A DNA stretch of 39,118 nucleotides from Escherichia phage KKE5P. A program made the position numbers and the translations under genes. Location: the sequence record PQ356293.1; one strand, 5' to 3'. Below, one piece after another: positions 1 through 39,118 of the stretch; the first letter of the stretch is position 1, and each line of letters opens with the position of its first letter. The notes beneath the pieces were generated by a model. It saw only the letters and a program-made list of their open reading frames with translations. It ran no database searches and had not been told where the DNA came from.

Positions 1-127
1 ATCCTCAAGAATCTGACGGGCCTTAGCGTGGTCACAGCAGCGGTGCCAAATCTCTTCCTCCCATGAGGCATCAAACTCAGCAGCACTCATCGCTTGGAAG
101 ACCAGCCAGTCTCCGTCCATCACGAGG
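1..127. repeat. Exact duplicate of 38992..39118 (window-end overlap from a circularised or concatemeric representation)
   Basis: Direct base-by-base comparison: window 1..127 matches 38992..39118; the repeat lies inside gene 6 coding sequence. Confidence 0.9.
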
Positions 128-189
128 ATACCTTTGTCGTCACAACCTTCGCGTAACTCGTAGAACTCCTTCAGCGTCATCAGGCTCAT
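1..189 (-). CDS. 6: Exonuclease gp6, N-terminal fragment (start codon 187..189; continues at window end)
   Basis: Minus-strand translation MSLMTLKEFYELREGCDDKGILVMDGDWLVFQ... is in frame with ORF 38278..39114 across the overlap; combined length 903 nt = 300 aa as in T7 gp6. Confidence 0.85.
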   Translation of the reverse strand, partial: MSLMTLKEFYELREGCDDKGILVMDGDWLVFQAMSAAEFDASWEEEIWHRCCDHAKARQILED

Positions 190-578
190 AGGGCCTCCTC
201 AGCTGTGCTCATGGCAACCGGAACGATATCCAGCAGCTTACGCTCAGGGTCTAAGGTTGGAGCAGCAGCGTGAACCCAAGTGGTCACAACGCGAGTCTCA
301 CGGCGTTCTTCGAGAACGTTAATCTCTTCACCGTAGGTCTCGAACCCATCGTATGCGGTCGTATAACCGTCAATGGTCAGACGCTTACCAACATACATCG
401 CCAGCACCACAGCCAGCTCGCGGTCATCGTCCATCTCATCTTCGGCTCGCTCAGCGGTAACGTCAAGGAACATCGTAGCGTCCACCATATCGTGCTTCAG
501 ACGACCACCTTCCTCGCACTCACCACATTCCATGATGTAGTGCCACAGTGACAAGTTGTCTTTCTTAGTGAGAATCAT
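186..578 (-). CDS. Hypothetical acidic protein, 130 aa (about 29 D/E vs 13 K/R); no T7 counterpart recognised
   Basis: ATG at 576..578 overlaps upstream stop as ATGA; its stop overlaps gene 6 start as ATGA; GGGGGTG SD-like upstream; sits in the gene 5.9 slot. Confidence 0.65.
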   Translation of the reverse strand: MILTKKDNLSLWHYIMECGECEEGGRLKHDMVDATMFLDVTAERAEDEMDDDRELAVVLAMYVGKRLTIDGYTTAYDGFETYGEEINVLEERRETRVVTTWVHAAAPTLDPERKLLDIVPVAMSTAEEAL

Positions 579-781
579 TCTGCACCCCCTTTAGCCACTA
601 CCAACACCTGAGTAAACTTACGGAACGTCTTAGTACCCCAATGGCTAACGCCCACCTGAACGCTCTTAGCAGTGATTCTCTCCACCTTCGTGGTCAGGAA
701 CTCAGCATACTGAGCACTGGCATACACAATTGTGTCACCAATCTCAATGGGTGTACCACAGTAATCTACAGGCTTACTCAT
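575..781 (-). CDS. Hypothetical protein, 68 aa (MSKPVDYCGTPIEIGDTIVYA...), in gene 5.9 position but not resembling T7 gp5.9
   Basis: ATG at 779..781 overlaps gp5.7 stop (ATGA); track ORF 575..835 trimmed to first ATG after the gp5.7 stop. Confidence 0.55.
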   Translation of the reverse strand: MSKPVDYCGTPIEIGDTIVYASAQYAEFLTTKVERITAKSVQVGVSHWGTKTFRKFTQVLVVAKGGAE

Positions 782-987
782 ACGCAACCTCCCATTCGTT
801 TCAGAAAGCGAACACCTTGGGACGTGATTTCCCAAGCGCCACCATTGCGCCCACTAGTGGTCAGGCACGATATGTGACCACGGGAAGCGGCCTCCGCTAC
901 GAGGCTCGCATTGTTCCGTACATAGTTGGACTGGAAAGTCTTAGGGCAACTTTTGATTGCTTGCAGCACTTTCAGGTAGTCAGACAT
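778..987 (-). CDS. 5.7: gp5.7, 69 aa
   Basis: Protein MSDYLKVLQAIKSCPKTFQSNYVRNN... recognised as T7 gp5.7; start overlaps gp5.5 stop. Confidence 0.85.
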   Translation of the reverse strand: MSDYLKVLQAIKSCPKTFQSNYVRNNASLVAEAASRGHISCLTTSGRNGGAWEITSQGVRFLKRMGGCV

Positions 988-1286
988 CAGAACACCTCCC
1001 GTACAGTTGCAGGAGAGAACTTGAAGCAGTCACCATCGGCGTACTCTTCCCTCATCTCCTTGATACCTTCACGCAGCGCCTGTTTGACTACGAACGCCAT
1101 CACGCCTTCCATACCGTTGGTCAGGAACTGCACCAGTATCTCACGCTGCTTATGGGACACACTTTCGTCCCCATCGCGAGCCATCTTAGCGATGCGCTTA
1201 ACATCTTCGAACAGAGCAGCTTCGACGTCGCTTGGCATTACAGCGGTAACGTTGAAGGACACTTTAAATTTCTTGGTCATAGCCAT
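987..1286 (-). CDS. 5.5: gp5.5 (H-NS-binding protein), 99 aa
   Basis: Starts MAMTKKFKVSF... after AAGGAG SD; track ORF 987..1343 trimmed to the ATG at 1284..1286. Confidence 0.85.
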   Translation of the reverse strand: MAMTKKFKVSFNVTAVMPSDVEAALFEDVKRIAKMARDGDESVSHKQREILVQFLTNGMEGVMAFVVKQALREGIKEMREEYADGDCFKFSPATVREVF

Positions 1287-1299
1287 AATAATTTCTCCT

Positions 1300-1605
1300 T
1301 TATTTCTTGACAAGTTTACGTTCTCTGTTTGTCTTAACAACATGGTCCCGCTTCGGTATACACTGTAGGTGCTCCACGTTGCAGCACCCTCTATTTAGGC
1401 ATAGATGGTCTATCTCGTAACCATCTGGTATAGGTCCTCGGTGTTGCTCCCACACCCATCGGTGGAACATGAAGTTCTTCTTCTCACCTTTACGAGAAGA
1501 CCCTACGCTGTACCGGAAGTATCCATCTTGGTTTCTCTTATGGGAAACGCATACGATACATCCGGTAGGCATCTTGTGAAACCGTAATGTAGCAACGCCT
1601 CCCAT
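1300..1605 (-). CDS. 5.3: gp5.3-position HNH-motif protein, about 101 aa
   Basis: GGAGGT SD then ATG at 1603..1605 just after gene 5 stop; HNH-like motif DGYEIDHLCLNRGCCNVEHL. Confidence 0.7.
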   Translation of the reverse strand: MGGVATLRFHKMPTGCIVCVSHKRNQDGYFRYSVGSSRKGEKKNFMFHRWVWEQHRGPIPDGYEIDHLCLNRGCCNVEHLQCIPKRDHVVKTNRERKLVKK

Positions 1606-1615
1606 AGTACCTCCA

Positions 1616-3730
1616 TTAATGGCATTCTTTCCAGTTGGCTCCCGTCTTACCTTCCGTGTCGAGTAAGCAGCGGAAGTTCCAATGGTCTCCAACCCAACGC
1701 ATCGCCTCCTGTGCAACTTCAATGACAGTCTTAGCGATTTCTTCTGTACGACACGCTACCTGAATTTCATCATGTATCCATGCCATGTACGCAAAGTCCC
1801 CATCCCAGCCGTGCTTCAAGCCTTTCTCTACGAGCATCTCTTCGGTCTTGATAATCCACAGTTTGCAGATAAGAGCACCAGCAGATTGCAGTAGTGTATT
1901 CAATGCAGCGTGAGGACTACGAACGTGTACCTTACGACCGTCCAGACCTTTAATCCAGCGGCGTTTCCACTTGACTCGCTGTTCGCCAGCTACCCACTGA
2001 GAGGACTCGACAAGTGTCTGTTGGATAGACTCACGGAGTGCTGCAATAGCTGGGGTGTTCTCAAGGAATTTCTTCTTGAGTTCCTTACCGCGTTCTTTAC
2101 CAGCGCCAACAATCTGTCCAATCTTCTCATCACCAGCACCATAAAGGAACCCATAGATGAACGTCTTGGCGTTATCACGGGTAGGCAATTCGGCAGCCAT
2201 CTGGTTCTTAGTGTGAATGTCACCATTAAGAATCTCGTGAGCGTACTCTCCGTCATCAAAGCGAGCCATGAAGTGGGCCAAGCAGCGTAGCTCCAGACCG
2301 GATGCGTCGATACCAGCCTGAATCCAAGGCTTACCAGTAATACCGTCTAGGTGATGTTCAGCGCCAAAAGCAGCGCGGCACTTATCACCATAAGGAGAAC
2401 GGACACCGGGCACCTGTGCGAGGTTAGGGAAAGCGTGAGTAGCGCGCCCAGTAACAGCGCCGTTGGGATTAACAGAACCATGAATTTTACCATCCTCAGC
2501 AACGTAACGAAGCCACGCCTTGTCTCCCTCAGCAGACTGTCCGATTCGCTTCTGAATCATCAGGTACTCTTTAATGAGGTCGATAGCAGCTTGCTTCTCA
2601 GGGTCATCTACACGTACTCCTTCGAGTACCTCATCGTCCACCACAGGAGCATTCTTATCGGTGAACTTAGTCGGGACCCATCCAGCCTCTTGGAGTTTCT
2701 TCTGAATGTGGTCACGAGACGATGGGTTAAACACTACGTGCTCTACCGGAGTATACGGAGCACCAGCAACGTACTCGCGGGTATCCAGTTCGCAAGGCTC
2801 TCGGCCTTCTCGCTGTGCCTTGTTCTTCGGCTTCTTAAAGATACCTCCGACTTTAGGTATCTTAACGCGAGGATACTTAGGAAGTGGTTTACCTGTCCTC
2901 GGATGGCAGAACATTTCGGTGCCACCTTTAGGCTGATACCATGTCCCGAACGTTTCGGTCAATTTACGTAGCAACTCAGAGCGGCGAGCAGCCAACTCTA
3001 CGTACAACTCTTCGATTGCTTTCGTGTCAAACGGGAATCCATTGCGCTCTTGCTTAGCGAGCAACCATGCAGCACGATGTTCAACGTCAACGGCCTCAAG
3101 GGATTCTGACCAGAACGTAGTGTAGCCTACATCCGTAAAGTCAATATCAGGATGGAAGTAGTGTTTGTCAGAGAGTAGCTTCTCAAGGAGAGCCTTAGTG
3201 ACCACAACGTCCTGAACGTTATATGCCATCATCTCTTCGTTGAAGTTCAACCACTCCATTCCGTCAACATATTCTTCACCCTGCTCTTCAAGCATACGCT
3301 TAAAGTCGTCCTTGTATTCACCCTTCATTTCTCCTAAGCGATAACCCCACGCCTCCAGAGCGTGAGACCCAAAGCGTTTCCCCGGCAGTTTACCGGAACG
3401 CAGAAGACCCATATCGGTGTCCTTTAGGTTGGAGTGAATCAGGCGTGACAGCACAAGTGTGTCAATACAGTTCTCACGAGGAAGGTGGAACTCTCGGTTC
3501 AATTGCAGCTTTGCCAGTTTGGTCAGTGCAGGAACGTCATACTTGTGACCGTTGTGGAACACAATAAGACCGCCTCGTGCAACCTCGGCTTCCAGCGCAT
3601 CCAGATACGCACCGAAGTCACTCGGACGGTAGCTTACGTACTCAGCGGTGGAGTAGTCGTAGATAACCCCGCAGTGGAACTTAGTGACGCTCTCTAAGAG
3701 GGCGTTAGCTTCGATGTCAGAAACGATCAT
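1616..3730 (-). CDS. 5: DNA polymerase gp5, 704 aa
   Basis: Full-length match from memory to T7 DNA polymerase ([32 protein letters not shown]...), same length. Confidence 0.98.
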
Positions 3731-10897: not shown

Positions 10898-10920
10898 TGT
10901 CCCTATACTGAGTCGTATTA
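10898..10920 (-). promoter_or_regulatory. T7-RNAP promoter phi1.3
   Basis: Promoter-sense taatacgactcagtatagggaca (characteristic G at -5). Confidence 0.85.
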
Positions 10921-38095: not shown

Positions 38096-38190
38096 AGAGT
38101 TAAATCTTAAAGTAATAATCATAAAGGCCCCTATCTCCCTATAGTGAGTCGTATTAATTTAGGGACCTTGAGTTTATCACTTAGAGTCTT
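38096..38190 (-). promoter_or_regulatory. RNase III-type imperfect hairpin bracketing phi6.5 (R6.5-like)
   Basis: gtaataatcataaaggcccct ... agggaccttgagtttatcac flank the promoter. Confidence 0.45.
38127..38149 (-). promoter_or_regulatory. T7-RNAP promoter phi6.5
   Basis: Promoter-sense taatacgactcactatagggaga (exact consensus). Confidence 0.85.
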
Positions 38191-38290
38191 GTAACGCCTT
38201 GATTATTCGGGCTAAGTCCCAAAGGCCCCACGCAATGAGGCACATTCCGAGGGCACAAAGACCAATGCCAATATATGCTACGGCCTCCAC
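38177..38290 (-). CDS. 6.3: gp6.3, 37 aa (apparent GTG start overlapping gene 6 end)
   Basis: Hand translation (M)EAVAYIGIGLCALGMCLIAWGLWDLARIIKALQDSK; AAGGAG 8 nt upstream. Confidence 0.5.
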   Translation of the reverse strand: MEAVAYIGIGLCALGMCLIAWGLWDLARIIKALQDSK

Positions 38291-39118
38291 AGGTAAATCT
38301 CCTTGTCAATAAAGTTGTACTCATTGAACCGCAGGATGCGCGCCATCTGGCCTTGCTTGATAACATCCTCTTCGGTCATGCCAGCCTTAGCACCAATGGA
38401 CTTAATGCAGTCCCAGAGCGTCTCATGTGGCTCAGGGTCGCGTTTAACCCACTTAGTGACCTCTTGCCCTTTGTTCTTCCCAGACTTAAGCACAGAGGTC
38501 TTAGGCTCGGTAATGAACGGGTTATTCAGGAAGTCCTCGGCAGTATCACCCCACCCCGCAATCCCTGAGTAACCATCGGTGATGTCACCCTTGATTGTCT
38601 GGAATAGATGCCACCAGTCAGCGGACTCTTCGGTCTGAGTCAGGATGTTACCAGTTGTACACCACAGGAAGTCGCAGTTAGGGATGGTCTTAAAGTCCTT
38701 ATCGCACGAGATGATTACAGCCTTACGAGCACCGAATGCAGACGGATTGGAAGCAATTACTCCCATAACGTCATCACCCTCAAGCATAGGCTCACGGATG
38801 CAATAGAACTCTTCGCGCTCAAAGAGGGCCTCAAGGAACTCAAAGTAACCTACAGGTTTCTTGGTGGCCTTACGGTTAGCCTTGTAGTTCGGGTCCACCA
38901 GTTCTTTGCGCCAGTTAACGCTATCTGTGAACGCAAGGACAATCGGAGCACCTACCCAAGCCTTCTTGCGGGTCTCATAGGACTTGATGGAATCCTCAAG
39001 AATCTGACGGGCCTTAGCGTGGTCACAGCAGCGGTGCCAAATCTCTTCCTCCCATGAGGCATCAAACTCAGCAGCACTCATCGCTTGGAAGACCAGCCAG
39101 TCTCCGTCCATCACGAGG
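38278..39118 (-). CDS. 6: Exonuclease gp6, C-terminal 280 codons (N-terminus runs off window end; see 1..189)
   Basis: ...MDGDWLVFQAMSAAEFDASWEEEIWHRCCDHAKARQILEDSIKSYETRKKAW... matches T7 gp6 to the C-terminus. Confidence 0.95.
   Translation of the reverse strand, partial: LVMDGDWLVFQAMSAAEFDASWEEEIWHRCCDHAKARQILEDSIKSYETRKKAWVGAPIVLAFTDSVNWRKELVDPNYKANRKATKKPVGYFEFLEALFEREEFYCIREPMLEGDDVMGVIASNPSAFGARKAVIISCDKDFKTIPNCDFLWCTTGNILTQTEESADWWHLFQTIKGDITDGYSGIAGWGDTAEDFLNNPFITEPKTSVLKSGKNKGQEVTKWVKRDPEPHETLWDCIKSIGAKAGMTEEDVIKQGQMARILRFNEYNFIDKEIYLWRP

What the first reader, a model, noticed from the sequence alone, without database searches (positions are those of the whole stretch)
186..781. 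Two translationally coupled non-T7 ORFs (68 aa and acidic 130 aa) in the gp5.9 anti-RecBCD slot
In T7 as I recall it, the only gene between 5.7 and 6 is 5.9, a roughly 52-aa acidic DNA-mimic inhibitor of RecBCD. Here that interval is about 590 bp and holds two ORFs that I do not recognise: a 68-aa near-neutral protein and a 130-aa strongly acidic protein with one CxxC (ECGEC). All four junctions in the run 5.5, 5.7, ORF68, ORF130, gene 6 are ATGA-type start/stop overlaps, so the pair is built into the class II operon and probably co-translated. Acidity plus position suggest a replacement or expanded host-nuclease or defence inhibitor, but that is inference only.
Basis: partly seen in the sequence, partly recalled or inferred. 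Interest (0 to 1): 0.75.

Follow-up and report, generated by a model that had tools for sequence, protein, structure and literature searches.

The report
Two swapped-in genes replace T7 gp5.9
In this T7-like phage the small anti-RecBCD gene 5.9 is missing, and its place holds two unrelated, horizontally exchanged genes of unknown function (a Tudor-like 68-aa protein and an acidic 130-aa protein) that are plausible but unproven replacement host-inhibitor genes.

Summary
On the minus strand, gene 5.7 (778-987) is followed by ORF68 (575-781), ORF130 (186-578) and gene 6 (from 189). Three junctions are ATGA overlaps; the 5.5/5.7 junction is TGATG. No gp5.9 homologue exists anywhere in the genome.

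Neither ORF is unique:
- **ORF68** belongs to phrog_2251/DUF7205, a Tudor/SH3-like beta-barrel family. It has at least 106 phage records at this position, including phage K11.
- **ORF130** (pI 4.4, net -16) belongs to a small phage-only family, 97.7% identical to Foetvirus SRT7 gp21. It has no Pfam match and no PDB fold relative.

The 5.7-6 interval is a hypervariable hotspot: 96 loci gave 14 arrangements, from empty to two genes.

- ORF130 is a discrete exchanged cassette: 94% nucleotide identity to SRT7, against 71-75% in the flanking genes.
- Its superfamily never co-occurs with gp5.9 (0 of 14 loci).
- ORF68 relatives occur alone, next to gp5.9, or naturally fused to gp5.9's acidic C-terminal half.
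- The CxxC is not conserved.

Best reading: ORF130 is a non-homologous stand-in for gp5.9, and ORF68 is an accessory module linked to such inhibitors. This rests on inference only; no homology or fold match supports it. Moderately interesting and testable.

The parts
575..781 (-). ORF68: 68 aa, pI 8.85, predicted five-strand Tudor/SH3-like beta-barrel; member of phrog_2251 / DUF7205
   Evidence: The ORF is listed. phrog_2251 scores 5.6e-12. tblastn finds 106 phage records, all below 60% identity and mostly directly upstream of gene 6. The closest relative is P0011, 78% identical, which carries a precomputed PF23835 label. The AlphaFold2 model has pLDDT 89.7 and is all-beta. The best Foldseek PDB hits are Tudor domains, with E 0.03 and TM 0.55-0.63.
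186..578 (-). ORF130: 130 aa, pI 4.38, net charge -16; alpha/beta core (residues 1-90) plus a conserved C-terminal tail (91-130) with no predicted secondary structure; phage-only family (phrog_19215)
   Evidence: The ORF is listed. phrog_19215 scores 1.7e-12 and phrog_4382 scores 7.9e-4. It is 97.7% identical to SRT7 gp21 and the P1723 homologue. Ten clusters were found among 5.8 billion proteins, and six remote representatives among 1.84 billion. The AlphaFold2 model has pLDDT 82. There is no PDB fold match, best E 0.7, and no PDB sequence match. BFVD hits are all uncharacterised phage proteins.
778..781 (-). ATGA overlap: gp5.7 stop / ORF68 start; Shine-Dalgarno GGGAGG at 793-788
   Evidence: Read from the sequence; coordinates.
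575..578 (-). ATGA overlap: ORF68 stop / ORF130 start; G-rich Shine-Dalgarno at 589-585
   Evidence: Read from the sequence; coordinates.
186..189 (-). ATGA overlap: ORF130 stop / gene 6 start; Shine-Dalgarno GAGGAGG at 200-194
   Evidence: Read from the sequence. The gene 6 product, reconstructed across the circular junction, is 300 aa.
778..987 (-). gene 5.7 (69 aa), the upstream anchor of the variable slot
   Evidence: phrog_1334 scores 7.5e-40. Relatives in IMG/VR are 77-96% identical.
987..1286 (-). gene 5.5 (99 aa); its stop overlaps the 5.7 start by 1 nt (TGATG at 989-985)
   Evidence: Pfam Phage_T7_55 scores 1.6e-36. The junction was read.
1..189 (-). 5' part of gene 6 (5'-3' exonuclease), the downstream anchor of the slot; continues at 38278-39118
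   Evidence: The first 127 nt of the window repeat its last 127 nt.

Best explanation
The interval holds two separate accessory-gene cassettes. They sit in a hypervariable hotspot of T7-like phages, between gene 5.7 and the gene 6 exonuclease. In T7 this hotspot holds the RecBCD inhibitor gp5.9.

**Shown**
- Both are real, conserved, translationally coupled genes within the 5.5-6 gene run. No consensus T7 promoter lies inside that run.
- gp5.9 is absent from the genome.
- ORF130 was exchanged horizontally as a discrete gene-sized unit.
- ORF68 is an extra insertion relative to the nearest ORF130-bearing relative.

**Inferred**
- ORF130 is a non-homologous functional stand-in for gp5.9. It would be an acidic protein that binds and blocks a host DNA-processing or defence machine. 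RecBCD is the best single guess; MukBEF, the other published gp5.9 target, is an alternative.
- It would act through its acidic alpha/beta core and its conserved, probably partner-induced, C-terminal tail.
- ORF68 would be a small Tudor-like binding or adaptor module that works alongside such inhibitors. In some phages its family replaces the N-terminal brace of gp5.9 in a single fused polypeptide.
- Turnover in the slot would be driven by host immune systems that sense gp5.9 or RecBCD inhibition.
For: **Position and loss of gp5.9**
- establish the layout and the absence of gp5.9.

**Hotspot**
- 96 loci anchored on gp5.7 and gp6 have slot lengths from about -45 to 589 nt and 14 different contents.
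- Among the 80 gp5.7-anchored IMG/VR loci: gp5.9 alone 28, empty 18, DUF7205 11, a basic 60-aa protein 10, an acidic 97-aa protein 5.

**Displacement**
- ORF130-superfamily genes include the 127-aa acidic phrog_4382 group, linked through P0017 at 35% identity, E 4e-16, and through the ORF130 phrog_4382 hit.
- They occupy the slot in 14 loci and never together with gp5.9. 35 of the other 82 loci carry gp5.9.
- SRT7 also lacks gp5.9 genome-wide.

**Conserved acidity**
- pI 4.2-5.3 and net -7 to -18 in all 16 family representatives.

**Cassette exchange**
- ORF130 is 93.8% nucleotide-identical to SRT7. Gene 5.7 is 75% and gene 6 is 71-73%.
- The same pattern holds against L010.

**ORF68 link to gp5.9**
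- Three protein clusters (P0026, P0032, P0034) are fusions.
- Residues ~6-65 match phrog_2251. Residues 63-101 match Pfam Phage_T7_Gp5_9 at 48-55 bits, above the 24.5-bit cutoff.
- P0032 is found at the same slot in four separately assembled contigs shown, out of six on record.
- The fusion order, DUF7205 then acidic part, matches the ORF68 then ORF130 order here and in L008.

**Literature**
- gp5.9 is an acidic dimeric coiled-coil DNA mimic. Its N-terminal beta-strand contacts RecB and RecC (PMC9836394).
- It also inhibits MukBEF (PMC7617805).
- gp5.9 or RecBCD inhibition triggers retron Ec48, P2 OLD and type III Sir2-HerA (10.1101/2020.06.21.156273; 10.64898/2026.07.10.737580; PMC13434337).
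Against: - There is no sequence or fold similarity between ORF130 or ORF68 and gp5.9, Gam, Abc2, Ocr or any solved DNA mimic.
- Acidity is common among small phage early proteins.
- 18 of 80 related phages have an empty slot, and others carry basic proteins or an HNH endonuclease there. The slot therefore does not dictate function.
- Mutual exclusivity rests on few, phylogenetically related loci. Part of the sample was fetched through ORF130 itself.
- Remote ORF130 homologues sit among nucleotide-metabolism and lysis genes: NUDIX/endolysin in T4-like phages, and DHFR/ThyA in a 51-kb phage. None sits next to a recombination gene.
- The superfamily-wide invariant residues (G19, K28, G71; H29 and G78 nearly so) could instead mark a ligand or catalytic site.
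- ORF68 relatives occur alone in K11-type phages, so they do not need an acidic partner.
Confidence: 0.35

Rival explanations
1. ORF130 is a counter-defence or host-takeover protein with a target unrelated to RecBCD. Examples would be an inhibitor of another nuclease or defence effector, or a sponge for an immune signalling nucleotide. It sits in the slot only because the slot tolerates insertions.
For: The slot accepts many unrelated genes, including an HNH endonuclease and a zinc-ribbon peptide. The family has conserved aromatic and basic residues (W12, H13, Y14, K28, H29, Y72, Y76, F79) that could bind a ligand. Remote homologues in T4-like and other phages are not next to recombination genes. 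No similarity to known RecBCD inhibitors was found.
Against: No match to any PADLOC, Pfam or NCBIfam model, and none to solved sponge proteins; Tad2 appears only at E 2.9. This reading does not explain the mutual exclusivity with gp5.9 or the conserved strong acidity.
Confidence: 0.3
2. ORF68 and ORF130 form a two-protein complex, basic beta-barrel plus acidic partner, and act only together. ORF68 would serve as an adaptor, chaperone or neutraliser of ORF130.
For: The two genes are adjacent and joined by an ATGA overlap. The same pair in the same order occurs in a second, divergent phage, L008: 78% and about 56% amino-acid identity, with the backbone at 72-77% nucleotide identity. The charges are opposite. 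The DUF7205 family is covalently fused to an acidic partner in other phages.
Against: ORF130 occurs without ORF68 in 9 loci. These include L009, whose gene 5 and gene 6 are 91-93% identical to the window. ORF68 relatives occur alone in K11-type phages or with gp5.9. Only 2 of the 96 loci in the survey (window and L008) carry the pair.
Confidence: 0.12
3. The two proteins have housekeeping roles in phage DNA metabolism or gene regulation, not in host inhibition. Examples would be modulating the gene 6 exonuclease, replication or host RNA polymerase, as neighbouring gp5.5 and gp5.7 act on H-NS and sigma-S RNA polymerase.
For: They lie within the DNA-metabolism gene run, between 5.7 and 6. Tudor/KOW/CarD-like barrels often bind nucleic acid or RNA polymerase; the matches here are weak. 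Remote ORF130 homologues lie among nucleotide-metabolism genes.
Against: Both genes are dispensable at family level, since the slot is empty in 18 of 80 relatives. ORF130 is exchanged horizontally as a single gene. Both patterns are typical of accessory conflict genes rather than core functions.
Confidence: 0.15

Closest known systems
T7 gp5.9 (Pfam PF25708, RecBCD and MukBEF inhibitor, DNA mimic)
   Same: Same genomic position between 5.7 and 6, and the same translational coupling. ORF130 shares the strong acidity (pI 4.4 against about 4.0-4.1). ORF130 superfamily members and gp5.9 replace one another in the slot. The ORF68 family is found adjacent to gp5.9 and fused to it.
   Different: No sequence similarity. 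gp5.9 is a 52-61 aa parallel coiled-coil dimer. ORF130 is a 130-aa alpha/beta protein with a tail lacking predicted structure, and ORF68 is an all-beta barrel. Binding to RecBCD is untested.
Escherichia phage SRT7 gp21 / P1723 ZD95_27 (Foetvirus; phrog_19215)
   Same: 97.7% amino-acid and 93.8% nucleotide identity to ORF130. Same position directly upstream of gene 6.
   Different: In SRT7 and P1723 it follows 5.7 directly, with no ORF68. The backbone genes are only 61-75% identical. The function is unknown; the P1723 label 'sugar ABC transporter substrate-binding protein' has no support here.
Klebsiella phage K11 unnamed ORF between 5.7 and 6 (ASC_0027; phrog_2251 / DUF7205)
   Same: Same family as ORF68 (52% identity in the alignment), same length, and same position immediately upstream of gene 6.
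   Different: In K11 it is the only gene in the slot. In JSS2 and KA1-1 it follows gp5.9. Here it precedes ORF130. Its function has not been characterised.
Accessory-gene hotspots next to phage recombination genes (lambda gam/red region, P22 abc1/abc2, HK75 gp33/Oad2)
   Same: A modular, fast-turnover locus next to the phage's own recombination nuclease. Such loci carry RecBCD inhibitors and other anti-immunity genes (10.64898/2026.07.10.737580; 10.1101/2023.04.06.535777).
   Different: A different phage group and unrelated proteins. The T7-family slot holds only 0-2 very small genes, joined to their neighbours by overlapping stop and start codons.

Membership tests
gp5.9 RecBCD inhibitor (Pfam PF25708 Phage_T7_Gp5_9) | Sequence match to the family profile | tested here: not met
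   No Pfam hit at E <= 1 for ORF68 or ORF130. My own 35-sequence gp5.9 profile finds nothing in the whole window, best E 1.5. tblastn gives E > 0.7.
gp5.9 RecBCD inhibitor (Pfam PF25708 Phage_T7_Gp5_9) | Short (about 50-60 aa) parallel coiled-coil dimer with an N-terminal beta brace (PMC9836394) | tested here: not met
   The ORF130 model is beta-alpha-beta-beta-alpha-alpha-beta-beta-beta plus an unstructured tail. The ORF68 model has five beta strands.
gp5.9 RecBCD inhibitor (Pfam PF25708 Phage_T7_Gp5_9) | Highly acidic (pI about 4) | tested here: met
   ORF130 has pI 4.38 and net -16. ORF68 does not meet this (pI 8.85).
gp5.9 RecBCD inhibitor (Pfam PF25708 Phage_T7_Gp5_9) | Binds RecBCD and blocks DNA binding | not testable with these tools
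   Needs biochemistry or complex prediction. No multimer prediction tool was available.
phrog_2251 / Pfam DUF7205 (for ORF68) | Profile match | tested here: met
   phrog_2251 scores 5.6e-12 over residues 6-65. All 26 homologues, including P0011 at 78% identity, carry a precomputed PF23835.2 label. The older PF23835.1 model in the local Pfam copy does not reach threshold for ORF68, so membership rests on PHROG and on the homologues' labels.
phrog_2251 / Pfam DUF7205 (for ORF68) | Location between 5.7 (or 5.9) and gene 6 in Studiervirinae | tested here: met
phrog_19215 / SRT7 gp21 family (for ORF130) | Profile match and close homologues at the same locus | tested here: met
   phrog_19215 scores 1.7e-12. 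ORF130 is 97.7% identical to SRT7 and P1723. Homologues lie between 5.7 and 6 in L001, L002, L004, L005, L008, L009 and L010.
DNA-mimic proteins (functional class: Ocr, Gam, ArdA, Arn, Ugi, gp5.9) | Structural similarity to a known mimic | tested here: not met
DNA-mimic proteins (functional class: Ocr, Gam, ArdA, Arn, Ugi, gp5.9) | Surface carboxylates spaced like DNA phosphates | not testable with these tools
Only the net charge and its spread along the sequence could be computed.
Tudor / SH3-like small beta-barrel fold (for ORF68) | Five-strand barrel superposable on Tudor domains | tested here: inconclusive
   The top Foldseek hits are all Tudor domains, with probability about 1.0 and TM 0.55-0.63, but E is only 0.03-0.1. 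Sequence hints to Phage_ProQ_C_like, Spt5 KOW, FXR2 Tudor and CarD are below threshold.
   ORF130 has only two Cys. C21 is replaced by V in P0007 and P0008. Both Cys are absent in remote homologues.

The most novel reading that the evidence does not exclude
The ORF130 superfamily (phrog_19215 plus phrog_4382) is a previously unrecognised fold class of RecBCD or MukBEF inhibitor. T7-like phages swap it in for gp5.9 to escape immune systems that sense gp5.9 directly. DUF7205 is a portable Tudor-like targeting module that can work in trans or fused to the acidic mimic. If so, the 5.7-6 slot is a compact natural library of alternative inhibitors of one host hub.
Probability: 0.22. Interest if true: 0.7.

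Novelty: new variant of a known kind. Interest (0 to 1): 0.45.

Why it matters
RecBCD is a hub of phage-host conflict. It degrades phage DNA, phages inhibit it, and several immune systems fire when it is inhibited or when gp5.9 is present.

A second, structurally unrelated protein family filling the gp5.9 position would show how phages change inhibitor to evade trigger-sensing immunity. It would also add a new inhibitor scaffold. The natural fusion of a Tudor-like domain to gp5.9 gives a concrete, testable lead on an uncharacterised family found in more than 100 Klebsiella, Salmonella and E. coli phages used in therapy work.

If the inference is wrong, the result is still a clear map of a small accessory-gene hotspot in the best-studied phage family.

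Tried and rejected
**Profile and sequence searches**
- Pfam, NCBIfam and PADLOC gave nothing for either ORF.
- PDB sequence-profile searches gave nothing significant.

**Fold searches**
- Foldseek of the ORF130 model against PDB gave no hit better than E 0.7.
- BFVD returned only uncharacterised phage proteins.

**Collection searches**
- tblastn against 72,556 plasmids found no match for either protein.
- An IMG/VR scan with the ORF130 alignment found only SRT7.

**Literature**
- 'DUF7205' returned 0 papers. 'SRT7' returned only taxonomy and host-prediction mentions.
- The accessory-gene screen preprint does not cover this locus.

**Ideas considered and rejected**
- A zinc-binding role for ECGEC: rejected because the motif is not conserved.
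- ORF68 and ORF130 as an obligate operon pair: rejected because both occur alone.
- Antisense ORFs on the plus strand (270-551, 730-1368): they lie opposite genes with strong homology and are most likely spurious. I did not test them further.
- A structured RNA or internal promoter or terminator: no Rfam match, and sigma-70 and terminator scans were at chance level.

**Method note**
- My first slot-ORF classifier mis-called T7 gp5.9, because gp5.9 overlaps gene 6 by about 20 nt. It was corrected.
Full report
**1. What is there**

The window is a T7-like (Teseptimavirus-type) genome, about 91% identical to several E. coli, Shigella and Salmonella phages. It is presented as the reverse complement, so the genes of interest read on the minus strand. 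Its first 127 nt repeat its last 127 nt. It is therefore a circularised assembly of a 38,991-bp genome, and gene 6 is split across the window ends.

Downstream of the DNA polymerase gene (1616-3730) and an HNH endonuclease ORF lie, in order:
- gene 5.5 (987-1286; Pfam Phage_T7_55, 1.6e-36)
- gene 5.7 (778-987)
- ORF68 (575-781)
- ORF130 (186-578)
- gene 6 (start at 189)

Three junctions are 4-nt ATGA overlaps; the 5.5/5.7 junction is a 1-nt TGATG overlap. Each start has a Shine-Dalgarno sequence 4-6 nt upstream. No consensus T7 promoter lies in the 5.5-6 run. The nearest ones in the direction of transcription are at 10898-10920 upstream and at 38134-38156 downstream of gene 6. There is no Rfam match, and sigma-70 and terminator signals are at chance level.

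**2. The genes are real**

Differences from homologues concentrate at third codon positions. ORF130 against SRT7 gives 5/3/16 by codon position, and against L004 gives 26/21/60. ORF68 against L008 gives 13/14/29. Both proteins gave confident AlphaFold2 models.

**3. gp5.9 is missing**

T7 itself (L021) has only the 52-aa gp5.9 in this interval. In the window no gp5.9 relative exists on either strand. tblastn with three gp5.9 sequences gives E > 0.7. A profile built from 35 gp5.9 sequences gives a best E of 1.5. The same holds for the whole SRT7 genome.

**4. ORF130**

ORF130 is 130 aa, with 29 D+E against 13 K+R and pI 4.38. Pfam, NCBIfam and PADLOC give nothing. It matches phrog_19215 (1.7e-12) and, weakly, phrog_4382; both are of unknown function.

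Distribution:
- It is 97.7% identical to gp21 of Foetvirus SRT7 and to the homologue in P1723. In both phages the gene lies directly between 5.7 and 6.
- A search of 5.8 billion proteins found only 10 clusters, at 58-96% identity.
- An exhaustive profile search of 1.84 billion representatives added six remote relatives.
- All close homologues whose contigs I read lie between 5.7 and 6 of T7-like contigs.
- Remote relatives lie between a NUDIX gene and the endolysin gene in T4-like Proteus phages, and between DHFR and thymidylate synthase in a 51-kb phage.

Structure and conservation:
- The model (pLDDT 82) has a beta-alpha-beta-beta-alpha-alpha-beta-beta-beta core in residues 1-90. Residues 91-130 form a tail without predicted secondary structure. 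That tail is nevertheless well conserved among the T7-like members (W101, A104, E112, K114, L116).
- Residues invariant across the superfamily are G19, K28 and G71, with H29 and G78 nearly invariant. The CxxC is not conserved.
- Foldseek finds no PDB relative, best E 0.7. In BFVD it finds only uncharacterised proteins of large myoviruses.
- Acidity is conserved in every family member.

**5. ORF68**

ORF68 is 68 aa with pI 8.85. It matches phrog_2251 at 5.6e-12. tblastn finds 106 phage records, all below 60% identity. Most are Klebsiella Przondovirus, and nearly all lie immediately upstream of the exonuclease gene.

Arrangements seen:
- In K11 it is the unnamed ORF between 5.7 and 6.
- In Salmonella phage JSS2 and Klebsiella phage KA1-1 the order is 5.7, 5.9, ORF68-like, 6.

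A profile search returned 26 clusters, all carrying a precomputed DUF7205 (PF23835.2) label. The model (pLDDT 89.7) is a five-strand beta-barrel. Its best PDB matches are Tudor domains, with TM 0.55-0.63 and E 0.03-0.1. Weak sequence hints point the same way: Phage_ProQ_C_like, Spt5 KOW, FXR2 Tudor and CarD.

**6. A natural fusion links the ORF68 family to gp5.9**

Three clusters (P0026, P0032, P0034; 103-104 aa) combine an N-terminal ORF68-like domain with the acidic C-terminal half of gp5.9.
- The N-terminal domain matches phrog_2251 at 2.2e-12 over residues 6-65.
- The C-terminal part matches Pfam Phage_T7_Gp5_9 at 48-55 bits, against a cutoff of 24.5, over residues 63-101.
- P0032 is on record in six contigs. 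The four I read are from separate assemblies, and all place it between 5.7 and 6.

The barrel replaces the N-terminal segment of gp5.9. In the RecBCD complex that segment forms the beta brace and contacts RecB and RecC (PMC9836394). The fusion order, barrel then acidic part, is the order of ORF68 then ORF130 in this window.

**7. The slot is a hotspot**

I anchored 96 loci on gp5.7 and gp6. Eighty came from an IMG/VR scan with gp5.7; the rest were fetched for this work. I tiled the ORFs between the anchors. Slot length runs from about -45 to 589 nt, and the window has the longest slot.

Contents of the 80 gp5.7-anchored loci:

| Slot content | Loci |
|---|---|
| gp5.9 alone | 28 |
| empty (5.7 coupled directly to 6) | 18 |
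| DUF7205 alone | 11 |
| basic 60-aa protein (phrog_12303) alone | 10 |
| acidic 97-aa protein (phrog_18166) | 5 |
| ORF130 | 2 |
| acidic 127-aa protein (phrog_4382), with or without the 60-aa protein | 3 |
| HNH endonuclease | 1 |
| 40-aa zinc-ribbon peptide | 1 |
| 60-aa protein plus gp5.9 | 1 |

The 127-aa protein is 35% identical (E 4e-16) to P0017, a remote member of the ORF130 superfamily. It belongs to the phrog that ORF130 hits weakly.

ORF130-superfamily genes therefore occupy 14 loci, never with gp5.9. Of the other 82 loci, 35 have gp5.9. DUF7205 does co-occur with gp5.9: two loci adjacent, four fused. The sample is neither independent nor unbiased, so this is suggestive only.

The DUF7205 | ORF130 pair is found only in the window and in L008. 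L008 is a divergent T7-like contig with 78% and about 56% protein identity.

**8. Horizontal exchange**

| Segment, window against SRT7 | Nucleotide identity |
|---|---|
| ORF130 | 93.8% over 389 nt, no gaps |
| gene 5.7 | 75% |
| gene 5.5 | 61% |
| gene 6 | 71-73% |

ORF68 is a clean 203-nt insertion relative to SRT7. The same contrast is seen against L010. L009 has gene 5 and gene 6 at 91-93% identity to the window. It carries ORF130 (90%) but no ORF68. ORF130 and ORF68 are therefore separate modules, with breakpoints at the overlapping stop/start junctions.

**9. Interpretation**

Shown:
- two real coupled genes
- no gp5.9
- a hotspot
- cassette exchange
- fusion of the ORF68 family with gp5.9

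Inferred:
- ORF130 substitutes functionally for gp5.9 as an acidic inhibitor of a host DNA-handling machine. RecBCD is the first candidate and MukBEF the second (PMC9836394; PMC7617805).
- ORF68 is an accessory binding module.

A rationale for the turnover comes from published work. gp5.9 itself activates type III Sir2-HerA (PMC13434337). RecBCD inhibition triggers retron Ec48 and P2 OLD (10.1101/2020.06.21.156273; 10.64898/2026.07.10.737580).

Evidence against is substantial:
- No homology or fold match to any known inhibitor.
- Many relatives have an empty slot.
- Remote homologues sit in unrelated contexts.
- A conserved K-H and glycine motif could mark a ligand or catalytic site.

I put 0.35 on the gp5.9-substitute reading, 0.30 on a different counter-defence target, 0.15 on a non-defence role, and 0.12 on an obligate ORF68-ORF130 complex.

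**10. Novelty**

Both families are already deposited as hypothetical proteins and are catalogued in PHROGs (and in Pfam as a DUF for ORF68). The genes as such are not new, and no literature on either family was found. Three things appear new:
- the slot-wide picture
- the displacement pattern between gp5.9 and ORF130
- the DUF7205-gp5.9 fusion

If the inference holds, this is a new variant of a known kind of system: a phage inhibitor of a host DNA-processing hub.

Noticed in passing
window 1-127 and 38992-39118: The first 127 nt are identical to the last 127 nt. The window is therefore a circularised assembly of a 38,991-bp genome, and gene 6 (300 aa) is split across the ends.
   Followed up: yes
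window 1300-1722 (-): An HNH endonuclease-like ORF lies between the DNA polymerase gene and gene 5.5, in the position of T7 gene 5.3. As listed from a TTG start, it overlaps the 3' end of gene 5 (1616-1722). This neighbouring interval also varies between relatives: an HNH gene plus a PD-(D/E)XK gene in L004, and nothing in L005.
   Followed up: partly
L012-L015 (NCBI metagenome assemblies GCA_0244497xx/4499xx), gene at L012:2501-2815: A natural fusion protein (P0032, 104 aa) joins a DUF7205 barrel to the gp5.9 C-terminal half. Two further fusion clusters exist (P0026, P0034). PHROGs also has a 139-position 'host RecBCD nuclease inhibitor' profile (phrog_4790) with the gp5.9 motif at its C-terminal end, which hints at other N-terminally extended gp5.9 proteins.
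   Followed up: partly
L057, L070, L094 (IMG/VR T7-like contigs), slot between 5.7 and 6: A 127-aa acidic protein (phrog_4382) is a distant relative of ORF130. Its C-terminal helix (residues 88-111) hits phrog_6163 at 3.2e-5. The gp5.9 part of the P0032 fusion also hits phrog_6163, at 1.3e-7. This may mean that ORF130-type cores and gp5.9-type helices share a segment.
   Followed up: no
L048, L066, L087, L092, L093 and L044, L054, L056 etc. (IMG/VR contigs): Two further uncharacterised slot families were found. One is an acidic 97-aa protein (phrog_18166, pI 4.2, with a weak hit to a PHROG labelled 'ribonucleotide reductase'). The other is a basic 60-aa protein (phrog_12303, pI 9.1). The 60-aa protein can accompany gp5.9 or the 127-aa protein.
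   Followed up: partly
L002:2501-2893 (Escherichia phage P1723, ZD95_27): The ORF130 homologue is annotated in GenBank as 'putative sugar ABC transporter substrate-binding protein'. Nothing in the profile or fold searches supports this label, so it looks like a mis-annotation.
   Followed up: partly
window, minus strand: 10898, 11384, 11459, 17086, 18032, 22903, 30195, 34564, 35602, 38134: Ten T7-consensus promoter matches with at most 3 mismatches, six of them perfect; 0 are expected by chance. The phage polymerase should therefore share T7 promoter specificity.
   Followed up: no
window 270-551 (+) and 730-1368 (+): Long antisense ORFs (93 aa and 212 aa) lie opposite ORF130 and opposite 5.7/5.5. 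They are most likely spurious, given the strong coding evidence on the minus strand. I did not test them.
   Followed up: no
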